Source: Vairimorpha necatrix (taxonomy: Eukaryota). From it: a stretch of 64,000 bases of DNA. Location of the stretch: the NCBI GenBank assembly GCA_036630325.1, contig CP142726.1, positions 1,426,001 to 1,490,000 of the forward strand. Direction: 5' to 3'. Made by a program: the position numbers and the translations under genes. The notes below the pieces were generated by a model. That model ran no database searches. It saw nothing but the letters and a program-made list of their open reading frames with translations, and had not been told where the DNA came from. Below, piece after piece: positions 45,763 to 50,816 of this stretch; within the stretch, counting starts at the first letter, position 1; each line of letters starts with the position of its first letter.

Positions 45763-46106
45763 TTTATAAACAAAATCAAAATAAACTATTATTTATCTGA
45801 AGAATTTAACCCACGTATTATTATAATTACTAGGGAAATGTCTTCATTAATATATCCTTGTTTACTATTAAGATCTTCTAAGGGTCTATTTGATATTATC
45901 ATTTTTAAATGTAACTTTATGTTGTATTACATCCCATATATTAATTCGATATTTATTAGTTCTTCTAATAGTATTTTGTTATTTTTAAATTATATCTTAT
46001 TCTTAATGATATTAATCTTCTTAACATATCTATAATTTTCTTATATTATTGTTTCTCATATAATGTTTAATTAATATTGATCTTATTATTGTATCTAGTT
46101 GTTTTT

Positions 46107-46490
46107 TTATATTATGTGGTTGTATATTTTATCTAGTACATATTTCTTAAATTTATATTTCCCTTCTCCATCTACTTTGATCTTTTGATCACTTATTTCT
46201 TCTATAGAAATATTAAACACTTTCTCATGTTTGATTTTCATTACTCCGCTTTTCCCTATAAAATAATTATAAAAAGATTTGGGGATTTCTAAAATCATTA
46301 TGTCTAATTCTTTCTCATTTCTATAAACCATAATACTTGTATCATCAATATATCCCTTAATTATTATATTCTCTGGGATATTGTGTGTCTTACTGAGGAG
46401 TACTCTCTTTTTATAATCTTGATGTATTATTTCTTTGTAGACTAGGCTTAGATTTCTGAGGAAAGATTCTTCATTTTCTTCAACGTACAT
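46107..46490 (-). CDS. KH-domain protein (possibly C-terminally truncated)
   Basis: LEIPKSFYNYFIGKSG (GxxG loop); CCCTCTT-ATG context. Confidence 0.65.
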   Translation of the reverse strand: MYVEENEESFLRNLSLVYKEIIHQDYKKRVLLSKTHNIPENIIIKGYIDDTSIMVYRNEKELDIMILEIPKSFYNYFIGKSGVMKIKHEKVFNISIEEISDQKIKVDGEGKYKFKKYVLDKIYNHII

Positions 46491-47162
46491 AAGAGGGAAA
46501 GAAAAAAGAAGAAAATTTTGAACTCTGTGTAAATGGCACTACTGGACATTTAAAGAAATCTCATCGAGCATTTAAAACTCTTTAGTTTTTTAATTATGCA
46601 GAAATTTGTTTATTTATCTTAAAATAAGATCAACCTTATTTTATTAATAAAATCCAAAAAAAAAGGAATGGAAAATAAACAAAAAGTGTCAAAAATATTA
46701 CTTACCAAAATATAAACTTAAAATACTTAAATTTATGATTTAAGTAATGTAAATTTTTGATTATTAAGTAGTGACGTGTATGGATTTTTTATAAAATTAT
46801 TTATTAATTTCTATTTTATTAAATTTTCTAAAAAATTCACCATCTTAAAAGTGCTTAAAATCTTTTTATAAAGTAAAATTGTATAAATTTTATCATTCAA
46901 ATCTTTATTTCTTATACTTCCTAACAATCCATAAAAATATAAAGATCCTAATATTTGACATTTCTCACAATCTAAACATCCTATTTCTTTTATAATATTT
47001 TCTATAATTTCTATATTTTTTTGATCAGTTTGTTTGTTAACAAACAAACTCTTCATTCTATTTCTTATAAAAATAAAAAGTAGCATAAAATTTTTAAAAA
47101 ATTTTCTTGATTTTAAATATACATAAATATTATGATATTTAAAGAATATTAAATTATAATAA

Positions 47163-47415
47163 TGTGGTATCCCGGGGAAACCCTCCCGGTTATAAAGTAA
47201 TATTCTAATATACTTCTAATAAATTGTTTTTTATTGGTAACTGTCCCTCTGGACTCTCTCTCCTGACGCTCTTTGGTCCTCTGTTCCATCTCCTTTTATG
47301 TGTGCCCTTCCTTTTCTGAAAATATATTTATAGTAAATTTTATTCATGAAAATTCAATGAGAGTTTTGACAGGGAGAGAAATAAAATAAATGTTGAAGAC
47401 TAACAGTCTACAACA
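47163..47415 (-). repeat. 3' LTR
   Basis: Appears identical by eye to 49182-49434. Confidence 0.95.
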
Positions 47416-47427
47416 TCCTGCCCTCTC

Positions 47428-49308
47428 TCAAAGCTTTAGCTGTTTCCTGTGAAACCATCCTACTAATCCATGTACTTTGTACCATAATCCATTTTTTCCC
47501 TTTTTGCACATCTTGTTTTCTCTTACAAATTTTTTATCAAGTTTATTTGTCGAGAATTTCCGCAAAAAGACTAGATCTTCGACCTCATTTTCCTGCTTAT
47601 ACGTTTTTATCCTGCTCTTTTTCTTTCTTGACCGATCAGTTATATTGGTGTTTCCCTTTTTTCTAAAAGGATCATTAAATCTTATATCGGTACTTTTATC
47701 TCGATATTTTACTACAGTATCGAACTGCTCTTTTAATTTTTTATTAGTAGTTTTAACAGCATTACATTCGCCTACTACTTCCATAATTTTATTATTTTTA
47801 ATCCAACTACCTTTTCCAAATGTTTTATTTCTTTCATTCTTTTGTTTATTCCTGATATATTTAATATTAATATCTTTAGTTTTCGCTGTATAATTTTTTA
47901 CTTTTATCTTATCTTCTTTTTCGATTTTTTTATCTTCCACTATGCAAATTCTTTCAATCATTGCCTTGTCTAATGTCTTTTCTTCTATTTCTTTGTATTC
48001 AATAAATTTAATCAATTTATTATCACACATTACCACTTTATTTTTGTAGTCTAGAATACAATTATTACCAAATAAAAAATCTCCACCTAAGATTATATCA
48101 TGCATACATTTATCAAAAATATATGGCTTAATAGTGTAATTCTTATTTACTCCTTCAAATTTAATTTCAAATTCTGTAGACTTATTACTAGTTATGACTT
48201 CTCCGTTTGCTATAACTGTTCTAATAGCTTTATTTTCTCTTAGTGGTAAATTTAATTTCTTAGCCAAGCTTTCTGAAATAAAACTTCTACTGGCTCCACT
48301 ATCTAATAATACTTTAATATTGTGTTCCTTAATTTTAGCTCTTACAATAATTTCTCTAACCGAATCTTTTTCTTCTTCCATGATGTTCATTTCACTTCTT
48401 CTTGGAAAATTCTTATCGTAGTCATTTCTTTTTCCGTTATTTAAAAAACAGTCAACTGAATTATGACCATTGTGCTTATGAAATTTGCACCACTTCTTTT
48501 GTAGAGGGAAATTATTGTTCCTAAAATTCTTAGTAGCTGTTTCGTGCTTCCTCATATCCATGTTGTTGTTTCTTAACTTTAAAATTTCTTCTTCCATCGT
48601 CTTTAGCTTCTTCATATATGCATCCAAATTATGCACATCAAGACTTTCAATTAGTATTCTCTTCGTTTTGCTTCCTAAACCCTTCTTGAAGCATTCCCAT
48701 AGCTTCCTGTTGTATTCTTCTCTGCTTATCTTATGGGCAATACTATAATATTTTATATAACTATTGATGTATTCATAATACTCACTTATCGACTCAAAAT
48801 TTTCTTGTCTTGCACTGGATAATTTATCAATCCATTCTTCCGCTCTATCAATACCATAAACTCTACTTAGAATTCTTTCGGTAATTTTACTTAATTCTCC
48901 TTTAAATACTTTATCATCAATTGACTTATCACTTATTAAATCTCTTAAGATGAGCTCATACTGCTCACTGTTCCATTTATTTCTTAAACTTATTTTTTCG
49001 AATGTTTCTAGCCATTCACACATATCAAAACTATAAATATCCTCTATGATATTTAACTCGGTCTCGATCTTCATATCCGTTCCTATAACGGTGTAACTTA
49101 ATTTCACTTTCTTCTTGTTAACCTCACTATGGTTAATCTTTTTGTAGCTCGTGCTCAAAATACTCGCACTTGAATTCAAGCTGTGGTATCCCGGGGAAAC
49201 CCTCCCGGTTATAAAGTAATATTCTAATATACTTCTAATAAATTGTTTTTTATTGGTAACTGTCCCTCTGGACTCTCTCTCCTGACGCTCTTTGGTCCTC
49301 TGTTCCAT
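47428..49308 (-). CDS. Gag-aspartic protease polyprotein lacking RT/RNase H/integrase core
   Basis: Gag (QENFESISEYY, FKKGL), knuckle CKFHKHNGHNSVDC, protease LLDSGASRSFIS and DIILGGDFL; the tail DLVFLRK..NKLDKKF..WFHRKQLK resembles the integrase extreme C-terminus. Confidence 0.9.
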   Translation of the reverse strand: MEQRTKERQERESRGTVTNKKQFIRSILEYYFITGRVSPGYHSLNSSASILSTSYKKINHSEVNKKKVKLSYTVIGTDMKIETELNIIEDIYSFDMCEWLETFEKISLRNKWNSEQYELILRDLISDKSIDDKVFKGELSKITERILSRVYGIDRAEEWIDKLSSARQENFESISEYYEYINSYIKYYSIAHKISREEYNRKLWECFKKGLGSKTKRILIESLDVHNLDAYMKKLKTMEEEILKLRNNNMDMRKHETATKNFRNNNFPLQKKWCKFHKHNGHNSVDCFLNNGKRNDYDKNFPRRSEMNIMEEEKDSVREIIVRAKIKEHNIKVLLDSGASRSFISESLAKKLNLPLRENKAIRTVIANGEVITSNKSTEFEIKFEGVNKNYTIKPYIFDKCMHDIILGGDFLFGNNCILDYKNKVVMCDNKLIKFIEYKEIEEKTLDKAMIERICIVEDKKIEKEDKIKVKNYTAKTKDINIKYIRNKQKNERNKTFGKGSWIKNNKIMEVVGECNAVKTTNKKLKEQFDTVVKYRDKSTDIRFNDPFRKKGNTNITDRSRKKKSRIKTYKQENEVEDLVFLRKFSTNKLDKKFVRENKMCKKGKNGLWYKVHGLVGWFHRKQLKL

Positions 49309-49434
49309 CTCCTTTTATGTGTGCCCTTCCTTTTCTGAAAATATATTTATAGTAAATTTTATTCATGAAAATTCAATGAGAGTTTTGACAGGGAGAGAAA
49401 TAAAATAAATGTTGAAGACTAACAGTCTACAACA
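49182..49434 (-). repeat. 5' LTR
   Basis: Appears identical by eye to 47163-47415; contains the ORF start ATG 49308. Confidence 0.95.
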
Positions 49435-49917
49435 AATAATTATATGATATGTGTACTGATATAAGAAAATGGATTCCTGATACTAGTTGTTTTATATTAT
49501 TATTTGATAAATTGTAGATATTTCTCCATATAAGAGCACCATTTTTACAATTAGTTTTACCTTCTTCTAAGTTTTTAAGATTTAAAATGTTGTTTTTTAA
49601 GATTAATTTTTTACAAGAAAATAGAGTGCATTTTTTTGTATGACAAGGAATAAGAGAAAGTTTAATTTTAGAGATTTTTAGATTTTCAAGGATTGATATT
49701 TCATCTGATAATTTATTTATGAGAAAAAGAGATATGAGTTTTATAGGAAGCATATTTTAGGGTGACAAAAAAATTAATATAATATTAGAAATCAAGATTT
49801 ATAAATATTGTATAGAAATGATAGATTTATAAATATTGTATAAAAATTCAAAAAGTACGAGTTAAATATTAGAAATGATATTTTAGATAGCTTAATAAAA
49901 AACGAGATTAAATTTAA

Positions 49918-50050
49918 AGAAGTATTGAATATAAAAAGAAAGAAATATTGAATATAAAAAGATCAAAAGCTTGAATATATAAAGAAAGAAGTATTGAATA
50001 TAAAAAGATCAAAAGCTTGAATATATAAAGATGAAAAGCTTGAACATATA
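49918..50050. repeat. Degenerate ~22-bp tandem repeat
   Basis: Repeated TTGAATATA(A/T)AAAGA core with AAGAAGTA/TCAAAAGC variants. Confidence 0.75.
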
Positions 50051-50378: not shown

Positions 50379-50816
50379 ATGGCGAGAACAAAACAATCAG
50401 CAAAGAAGACTACTGGTGGTAAAGCACCCAGAAAGCAATTAGCAGCCAAGTCTACTAAGAAGACACCAAGTGGGACACCAGGAACAGAGAAGAGAACCAA
50501 ACAAAGACACAGATCTGGTACACTTGTACTGAAAGAAATAAGAAGATACAGAAAAGGGACAGAGTGTCTTATAAGGAGACTTCCTTTCCAGAGACATTGT
50601 CGTGCTATTGTAAGAGAAAGCAATAATGCAGCAGAAATCAGATTCCAGGGGCCTGCCCTTGCTGCTATTCAGGAGGCTGTAGAGTGTTATCTTGTAGGAT
50701 TATTTGAAGATTCCCTCTTGTGTGCTACACATGCCAGGAGATGTACAGTAATGGCCCGGGATATTCTCCTTACTCTGAAGTTGAGATCAAGAGTGATCAA
50801 CACATGGACTGAGTAA
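50379..50816 (+). CDS. Histone H3 (divergent, microsporidian type)
   Basis: MARTKQSAKKTTGGKAPRKQL tail; LKEIRRY, LIRRLPFQR, IRFQ, LVGLFED, HARRCTVM. Confidence 0.93.
   Translation: MARTKQSAKKTTGGKAPRKQLAAKSTKKTPSGTPGTEKRTKQRHRSGTLVLKEIRRYRKGTECLIRRLPFQRHCRAIVRESNNAAEIRFQGPALAAIQEAVECYLVGLFEDSLLCATHARRCTVMARDILLTLKLRSRVINTWTE

What the first reader, a model, noticed from the sequence alone, without database searches (positions are those of the whole stretch)
46811..49753. ERO1 split by a very recent LTR-element insertion
Seen: removing 47163-49434 plus one AATAA copy fuses two ORFs into one uninterrupted 221-aa frame (...SVHISYNY|YNLIFFKYHNIY...CLDCEKC...). Neither half has decayed and the LTRs look identical. 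Established: Ero1 drives ER disulfide formation and is essential in budding yeast. Inference: a heterozygous knockout tolerated through ploidy or a paralog, dispensability of Ero1, or expression as two pieces (the C-terminal half has its own ATG at 47086 downstream of the 3' LTR).
Basis: partly seen in the sequence, partly recalled or inferred. Interest (0 to 1): 0.8.

Follow-up and report, generated by a model that had tools for sequence, protein, structure and literature searches.

The report
Fresh retrotransposon insertion breaking microsporidian ERO1
A very recently inserted jumping gene cuts the single copy of the disulfide-forming enzyme ERO1 found in this genome assembly of an insect parasite, most likely a dead allele hidden by intact copies on the parasite's other chromosome sets, and the public gene model hides the break behind an unlikely intron.

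Summary
A 2,272-bp non-autonomous Ty3/gypsy element (identical 253-bp LTRs, AATAA target duplication, gag plus protease only) splits a 221-codon gene. The gene is ERO1: it scores 164 bits against a profile of 22 relatives, and a family profile hits yeast and human Ero1 structures at E 3e-31 to 6e-27. Its branch is no longer than that of V. ceranae, so it was constrained until now. No second copy was found in the assembly. Named NCBI proteins identify Vairimorpha necatrix, reported as tetraploid. Their models splice over the element through a 2,274-nt non-consensus intron that removes a histidine kept in 22 of 22 relatives. Zygosity is unresolved. One public run has a contig leaving the window at the base predicted for an empty allele. 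Another carries the insertion junction with features of a different haplotype. Best reading: a null allele masked by intact homologues (0.6). Bold rival: all copies broken, with an Erv2-like oxidase as back-up (0.25).

The parts
49435..49753 (-). ERO1 N-terminal half: ATG at 49751-49753, hydrophobic N-terminus, CX4C (CHTKKC, 49628-49645), SGIH (49469-49480), His101 (in VHISY, 49442-49456); the frame runs two codons into the 5' LTR and stops at 49427-49429
49435..49439 (.). target-site duplication AATAA, copy at the 5' LTR
49182..49434 (-). 5' LTR, 253 bp, TG...CA
49169..49180 (.). 12-bp palindrome CTTGAATTCAAG where a tRNA primer-binding site would be expected
   Evidence: present in 8 of 8 full copies printed
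47428..49314 (-). 628-aa stop-free frame: gag-like region, retropepsin protease (about 48076-48345), and a tail matching the end of the relative's pol; no RT, RNase H or integrase domain
47416..47429 (-). polypurine tract next to the 3' LTR
47163..47415 (-). 3' LTR, identical to the 5' LTR; holds the acceptor (47183) used by the public gene models
47158..47162 (.). target-site duplication AATAA, copy at the 3' LTR
46811..47162 (-). ERO1 C-terminal half: CxxCxxC (CLDCEKC, 46958-46978), internal ATG 47084-47086, stop 46811-46813
46800..46805 (-). AATAAA just after the stop, a possible poly(A) signal (inference from sequence)

Best explanation
A young non-autonomous Ty3/gypsy element inserted into codon 107 of the single ERO1 gene. 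It probably used RT and integrase supplied in trans by pol-bearing relatives (inferred). The allele is null: translation from the ERO1 start stops two codons into the LTR (shown), and neither piece holds both cysteine centres and the FAD-binding helices (inferred from Ero1 anatomy). The insertion is polymorphic in the species. The tetraploid parasite survives because at least one of its other three homologues carries an intact ERO1 (polysomic masking; inferred). The assembly shows one pseudo-haplotype, and the gene finder bridged the insertion with an invented intron.
For: Identical LTRs and a perfect 5-bp duplication; LTR divergence is below 1.2% at 95%. A contig of run X1 differs from the window at 17 substitutions in 633 bases of the neighbouring gene, so haplotypes older than the insertion exist near this locus. 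No accelerated branch; 16 of 19 conserved columns kept. 47163 is the last base that filled and empty alleles share. X2 holds the same element family: its internal contig agrees with the C7 copy at 12 of the 13 sites printed, and the 13th is an X1-only variant. V. necatrix is reported tetraploid, with four pseudo-haplotypes 96% alike (PMC10759460, passages). Exonic TE insertions accumulate in autotetraploids by polysomic masking (PMC6925279, passages).
Against: The 42 loose letters of X2 were not displayed, the contig has depth 2.9, and X2 is another study, so it says nothing direct about the assembled isolate. X1 lists no loose end where an empty allele would leave (16 of 19 loose ends shown). 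X1 record 2 runs from the end of a TIR element that the window lacks here, through a synonymous variant (46831G), into the LTR. If phased, the insertion sits on a second haplotype as well. No intact full-length V. necatrix ERO1 protein was found in the protein collections.
Confidence: 0.6

Rival explanations
1. The insertion has spread to all four homologues of this isolate by gene conversion, recombination or drift. The isolate is a natural ERO1 null that oxidises PDI through its ER-type Erv2-like sulfhydryl oxidase or through host-derived oxidants.
For: X1 record 2 joins features of a non-window haplotype to the LTR junction without a break, and X1's internal contig has a variant (48736) absent from the two closest G000 copies checked. 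The one Erv/ALR gene found has an N-terminal hydrophobic stretch and a C-terminal CGC; that this anatomy marks Erv2 is recalled. PMC5216125 (passages) argues that the microsporidian Erv gene is ER Erv2, not Erv1. Overexpressed yeast Erv2p compensates for Ero1p defects (PMC2172237, passages). Mosaic identity between haplotypes is reported in tetraploid microsporidia (PMC12558613, passages).
Against: ERO1 relatives occur across the named microsporidia found (Vairimorpha, Nosema, Hepatospora) and the gene is a microsporidian BUSCO marker (PMC10759460 section 11). There is no decay. X2 points to an empty allele in the species. X1's contig may be a mosaic and its molecule type is only guessed. The Erv core scores higher against Erv1/ALR (103-112 bits) than against Erv2 (84-85 bits).
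Confidence: 0.25
2. The element is spliced out of the ERO1 pre-mRNA, as the public models propose, giving a working 222-aa enzyme.
For: NCBI holds a 222-aa and an 834-aa spliced model. 31 of 510 GT-AG pairs restore a stop-free frame. The 222-aa model folds as Ero1 (mean pLDDT 83). The species keeps a spliceosome (PMC10759460).
Against: [quoted passage not shown] The intron is 2,274 nt, GTACAC...GGGAG, with no TAAY motif in the 3' LTR. Three short introns that restore ribosomal-protein-like frames are 27-31 nt, GTAAGT...TAAT...AG (3 of 6 distinct loci checked, selected by my own pattern, whose control rang 13 against 16 times). The model loses His101 (22 of 22 relatives) and scores 140 against 164 bits; the best of the 31 splices reaches 143. 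pLDDT falls below 50 at residues 105-110, at and just after the LTR-derived patch.
Confidence: 0.06
3. The two halves are made separately (N-half from the ERO1 promoter, C-half from the 3' LTR and ATG 47086) and assemble into an active enzyme.
For: The ATG exists. X1 record 2 is compatible with an LTR-driven transcript over the C-half, if X1 is RNA, which is not on record.
Against: The C-piece omits 26 codons after the break. Its N-terminal hydrophobicity is low (1.2 against 2.3 for the N-half), so ER entry is doubtful. The break lies between helices of one bundle in the model.
Confidence: 0.03
4. The insertion is an assembly artefact.
For: X1 record 2 has only 29 letters inside the LTR, below the tool's 31-letter bar for bridging, and X1 may not be independent of the assembly. 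No contig of the other junction was listed.
Against: A perfect 5-bp duplication of the kind seen at 7 of 9 two-LTR copies. The element differs from every other copy found in G000 (at most 96% over the shared part). X1 continues from the flank into the LTR.
Confidence: 0.02

Closest known systems
Ero1 family (yeast Ero1p, PDB 1rp4/3m31; human Ero1-alpha, 3ahq; microsporidian ERO1-like proteins such as V. ceranae EEQ82799.1 and N. bombycis EOB12591.1)
   Same: CX4C and CxxCxxC centres, conserved W76, SGxH, H101, helical fold.
   Different: Only 221 aa. Like V. ceranae (234 aa) it lacks the hydrophobic C-terminal tail seen in most of the longer relatives. This allele is split by an LTR element.
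Microsporidian Ty3/gypsy LTR retrotransposons (Parisot et al. 2014, PMC4202319, passages read)
   Same: TG...CA LTRs, 5-bp duplication, polypurine tract, retropepsin; the C7 relative has PR-RT-RNase H-IN order.
   Different: The window copy is 1.9 kb shorter than the C7 relative and lacks RT, RNase H and integrase. A 12-bp palindrome replaces the tRNA primer site.
Exonic TE insertions masked in autotetraploids (Arabidopsis arenosa, Baduel et al. 2019, PMC6925279, passages read)
   Same: A young TE insertion in an exon of a polyploid, probably sheltered by intact homologues.
   Different: Here the host is a diplokaryotic tetraploid parasite, the gene is essential in yeast, and allele dosage is not yet measured.
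Published V. necatrix ERO1 annotation (VNE69_01371; WUR02434.1, WUR02435.1; PMC10759460 section 11 and supplementary table rows)
   Same: Same two halves, identified as ERO1 by structure.
   Different: It treats the element as intron or as a coding exon. The main text has no occurrence of 'LTR' and does not mention the insertion in the section read.

Membership tests
Ero1 (PF04137) | Pfam ERO1 score above the curated cut-off of 27 bits | tested here: inconclusive
   C-half 12-14 bits, N-half and the 222-aa model no hit; the joined frame was not run. 20 of 22 relatives pass the cut-off and all 22 have ERO1 as top family.
Ero1 (PF04137) | Homology to characterised Ero1 proteins | tested here: met
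   The profile of 23 sequences hits only yeast Ero1p and human Ero1-alpha (6 of 6 hits, E 3e-31 to 6e-27). The empty-site frame scores 164 bits against the 22-relative profile.
Ero1 (PF04137) | CX4C shuttle pair and CxxCxxC active-site triad (roles recalled) | tested here: met
   CHTKKC at 49628-49645 and CLDCEKC at 46958-46978; columns conserved in 20-22 of 22 relatives except the first Cys of CX4C.
Ero1 (PF04137) | Ero1 helical fold | tested here: met
   For the annotated 222-aa model the top 6 Foldseek hits are all Ero1 (probability 1.00, TM 0.56-0.62), though none reached E 0.001.
Ero1 (PF04137) | FAD binding, ER location and PDI oxidation | not testable with these tools
   Only an N-terminal hydrophobic stretch was seen.
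Ty3/gypsy LTR retrotransposon | Direct LTRs with TG...CA ends, 4-6-bp duplication, polypurine tract | tested here: met
Ty3/gypsy LTR retrotransposon | pol order PR-RT-RNase H-IN | tested here: met
   Met in the C7 relative, whose LTRs match 252 of 253. The window copy has only the protease, so it is a non-autonomous derivative.
Ty3/gypsy LTR retrotransposon | tRNA primer-binding site beginning TGG after the 5' LTR (usual, recalled) | tested here: not met
   0 of 8 copies printed; all 8 carry CTTGAATTCAAG instead.
Spliceosomal intron of V. necatrix | Short, GTAAGT donor, TAAY close to the AG | tested here: not met
   The annotated intron is 2,274 nt with GTACAC and no TAAY in the 3' LTR. The comparison set is small and pattern-selected.
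Heterozygous (masked) null allele | Intact allele present in the same individual | tested here: inconclusive
   X2 leaves the window at the predicted base; X1 lists no such exit. Only contigs were available.

The most novel reading that the evidence does not exclude
This V. necatrix isolate is a natural, very recent ERO1 knock-out on all four chromosome sets. ER disulfide formation then runs on the microsporidian Erv2-like oxidase (annotated as mitochondrial Erv1), which would make it a fungal relative caught in the act of losing an enzyme that is essential in yeast.
Probability: 0.25. Interest if true: 0.72.

Novelty: new member of a known kind. Interest (0 to 1): 0.4.

Why it matters
In the likely case this is a clean single example of tetraploidy sheltering a damaging insertion in a microsporidian. 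It is also a warning about annotation: a gene shown in print as a success of structure-based annotation rests on a model that bridges a transposon and loses an invariant residue. In the less likely case, the isolate is a ready-made test of whether microsporidia need Ero1 or can rely on an Erv2-type enzyme, which bears on how these parasites shed core eukaryotic pathways. Existing long reads can decide between the two.

Tried and rejected
Family search of the genome with PF04137 found nothing, but rang in no control genome either, so it shows nothing. Single-sequence PDB search with the 222-aa model gave only chance hits. Searches for short protein fragments spanning the junction found none (14 and 8 candidates, none scored). 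A metagenome scan with V. ceranae ERO1 for orthologous DNA (synteny, dN/dS) confirmed no locus among 188 pattern matches, so no dN/dS was computed. No RNA holder was listed. X1's depths (C-half 284, element interior 43-45, neighbour gene 86) and uncovered intergenic stretches were not used as copy number or expression, because contigs cannot show these. X3 and X4 held only 18-151-base scraps and were not used. The paper's RNA count of 1,069 for VNE69_01371 cannot separate ERO1 from element reads. A solo-LTR product would not restore the frame: 258 bp is a multiple of three, but the frame stops at codon 109. A paralogue was rejected: the best hits elsewhere were E 0.03 and 0.9, and V. ceranae and N. 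bombycis queries hit only this locus; these searches score only top candidates. The intron-pattern count was not used as evidence because its control rang almost as often. Not-in-print claim: one search for 'microsporidia' plus 'Ero1' gave 3 papers, and 'microsporidia, LTR retrotransposon, insertion, coding sequence' gave 27, of which 12 were listed; none of the listed titles concerns this insertion. Subscription papers, bioRxiv supplements and the paper's Zenodo data were not visible and may hold the other haplotypes.

Full report
Observation. The window holds two identical 253-bp repeats at 47163-47415 and 49182-49434. On the minus strand they begin TG and end CA, a purine run precedes the 3' copy, and AATAA flanks both outer ends. 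Taking out the element and one AATAA gives a 221-aa frame from the ATG at 49753. Of 8 cut lengths tried, only the two in-frame ones gave more than 200 aa. With the element in place the frame stops at codon 109, two codons into the LTR. Zero differences in 253 bases put LTR divergence below 1.2% at 95%.

The host gene. Pfam barely sees it: the C-half scores 12-14 bits against a cut-off of 27, and the N-half nothing. The C-half is 100% identical to parts of two NCBI proteins named ERO1 of Vairimorpha necatrix. A full HMMER search gave 25 hits: these two, one repetitive 1,434-aa protein that I dropped, and 22 relatives. All 22 have ERO1 as top Pfam family and 20 pass the cut-off; named ones include Nosema, Vairimorpha and Hepatospora proteins. 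A profile of the family hits only yeast and human Ero1 structures (6 of 6), and the fold of the annotated model ranks six Ero1 structures first, none at E 0.001 or better. For the next test I dropped the 100-aa fragment P0007 and added full-length V. ceranae P0028. Against that 22-sequence profile the empty-site frame scores 164 bits, keeps 16 of 19 conserved columns (relatives 15-19), and has an end branch of 0.60 against 0.68 for V. ceranae. The gene was therefore constrained like its sister until the insertion. CX4C and the SGIH/His101 segment lie in the N-half and CxxCxxC in the C-half. Their roles as shuttle pair, FAD contacts and active site are recalled from yeast Ero1p. No second ERO1 was found in G000 by DNA or by four protein queries.

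The element. Its 628-aa frame has a retropepsin domain and no RT, RNase H or integrase. G000 gave 33 matches. Among the 20 loci examined, 9 had both LTRs, with pair identities of 245/251 up to 270/270, and 7 of the 9 had a 5-bp duplication; 4 were solo LTRs with 5-bp flanking repeats. A 4,179-bp relative on C7 has LTRs 252/253 identical to the window's and a PR-RT-RNase H-IN frame. The window copy is a deletion derivative of that type, so mobilisation in trans is the natural inference. Judged by eye from flanking frames (labels recalled, not tested), most other copies lie in or beside other mobile elements or between genes; among those examined only the window copy splits a recognisable conserved gene.

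The public gene models. They use a donor at 49456 and an acceptor at 47183 inside the 3' LTR, giving 222 aa, or include the element's frame as an exon, giving 834 aa. The paper's methods describe ProtHint and Augustus and mention no RNA hints (PMC10759460; I saw passages, section 11 and supplementary table rows). The 222-aa form replaces VHISYNY with LTR-derived residues, loses His101 (22 of 22 relatives) and drops to 140 bits; model confidence is below 50 at residues 105-110. 31 of 510 GT-AG pairs restore a frame, the best at 143 bits, and none has a GTAAG donor. Three short introns that restore ribosomal-protein-like frames in G000 are 27-31 nt with GTAAGT and TAAT near the AG (3 of 6 distinct loci; picked by my own pattern). 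Splice rescue is unlikely but untested with reads.

Zygosity. The species is reported tetraploid with four pseudo-haplotypes. Five runs were listed, none on record as RNA; four were laid as contigs on 45900-49181, which holds one LTR and not the N-half. An empty allele would leave at exactly this base, since filled and empty forms share only the first T. The letters were not displayed. X2's internal contig matches the C7 copy at 12 of 13 printed sites, so it holds the same or a very close strain. Against simple masking: X1 record 2 runs unbroken from 46792 to 47191, 29 letters into the LTR, and no exit at 47162-47163 is listed (16 of 19 loose ends shown). It carries a synonymous variant at 46831 and begins with the exact end of an 830-bp TIR element that has 17 matches in G000 but is absent from the window. 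If that contig is phased, the insertion lies on a second haplotype too. It may be a mosaic, X1's molecule type is a guess, contigs drop rare forms, and X1 may not be independent of the assembly. The data suggest polymorphism in the species and leave the isolate's dosage open.

A possible back-up. One Erv/ALR gene was found. It has an N-terminal hydrophobic stretch and a C-terminal CGC and no N-terminal CxxC, an anatomy I recall as Erv2-like, although its core scores higher to Erv1/ALR than to Erv2 structures. PMC5216125 (passages) concluded for two other microsporidia that this gene is ER Erv2. PMC2172237 (passages) states that Ero1p is essential in yeast and that overexpressed Erv2p can compensate. 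Two PDI genes are annotated. A null isolate is therefore biochemically conceivable.

Mechanism and verdict. Shown: a real, young, non-autonomous LTR insertion that truncates the only ERO1 found in the assembly, and a public model that hides it. Inferred: the allele is null; intact homologues mask it (0.6), as exonic insertions are masked in autotetraploid plants (PMC6925279, passages). Rivals: all four copies broken (0.25; haplotype mosaics are reported in tetraploid microsporidia, PMC12558613, passages), splice rescue (0.06), split enzyme (0.03), artefact (0.02). It is a new example of a known kind. I found no description of the insertion in the searches made and no earlier scan note at this place. 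PMC12449221, PMC4202319 and PMC5731054 were seen as passages only. Interest 0.4, rising to about 0.7 if long reads show no empty allele.

Noticed in passing
window 49169-49180; L005-L007, L009-L012: All 8 full copies printed carry the palindrome CTTGAATTCAAG one base after the 5' LTR in place of a TGG-type tRNA primer site. Earlier scan notes report this for other copies.
   Followed up: partly
L030:1291-1797 (+), G000 C2: The single Erv/ALR gene found, annotated ERV1p in the paper's table, has an N-terminal hydrophobic stretch and a C-terminal CGC, more like ER Erv2.
   Followed up: partly
window 46791/46792 (run X1 record 2); L031-L035: A haplotype in X1 appears to carry an 830-bp element with terminal inverted repeats 19 bases after the ERO1 stop; the window lacks it.
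   Followed up: partly
L028:1744-5922 (G000 C7): A 4,179-bp relative with two LTRs each 252/253 identical to the window's, a CAAAT duplication, and gag and pol in different frames; it lies between two similar non-element frames.
   Followed up: partly
L005 / L029:4830-5558 (G000 C6): Another copy with identical LTRs (251/251) abuts a frame with a weak, below-cut-off D5-like hit, probably part of another mobile element.
   Followed up: no
alignment A1; P0005, P0006, P0028 and this gene: The clade of this gene, V. ceranae and two unnamed relatives has short ERO1s (221-234 aa; one 179-aa partial) that end before the hydrophobic C-terminal tail of most other relatives, raising the question of how they stay in the ER.
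   Followed up: no
window 46054-46697 (run X1 record 1): The neighbouring 143-codon frame region differs from the window at 17 substitutions and 13 gap positions in X1; 5 of the 6 coding changes checked are synonymous.
   Followed up: partly
window 49916-50050: A 23-bp tandem repeat of about six units lies upstream of ERO1, between it and the histone H3-like gene.
   Followed up: no
window 50382-50813: A histone H3-like gene with a divergent sequence and an insertion in the N-terminal tail.
   Followed up: no
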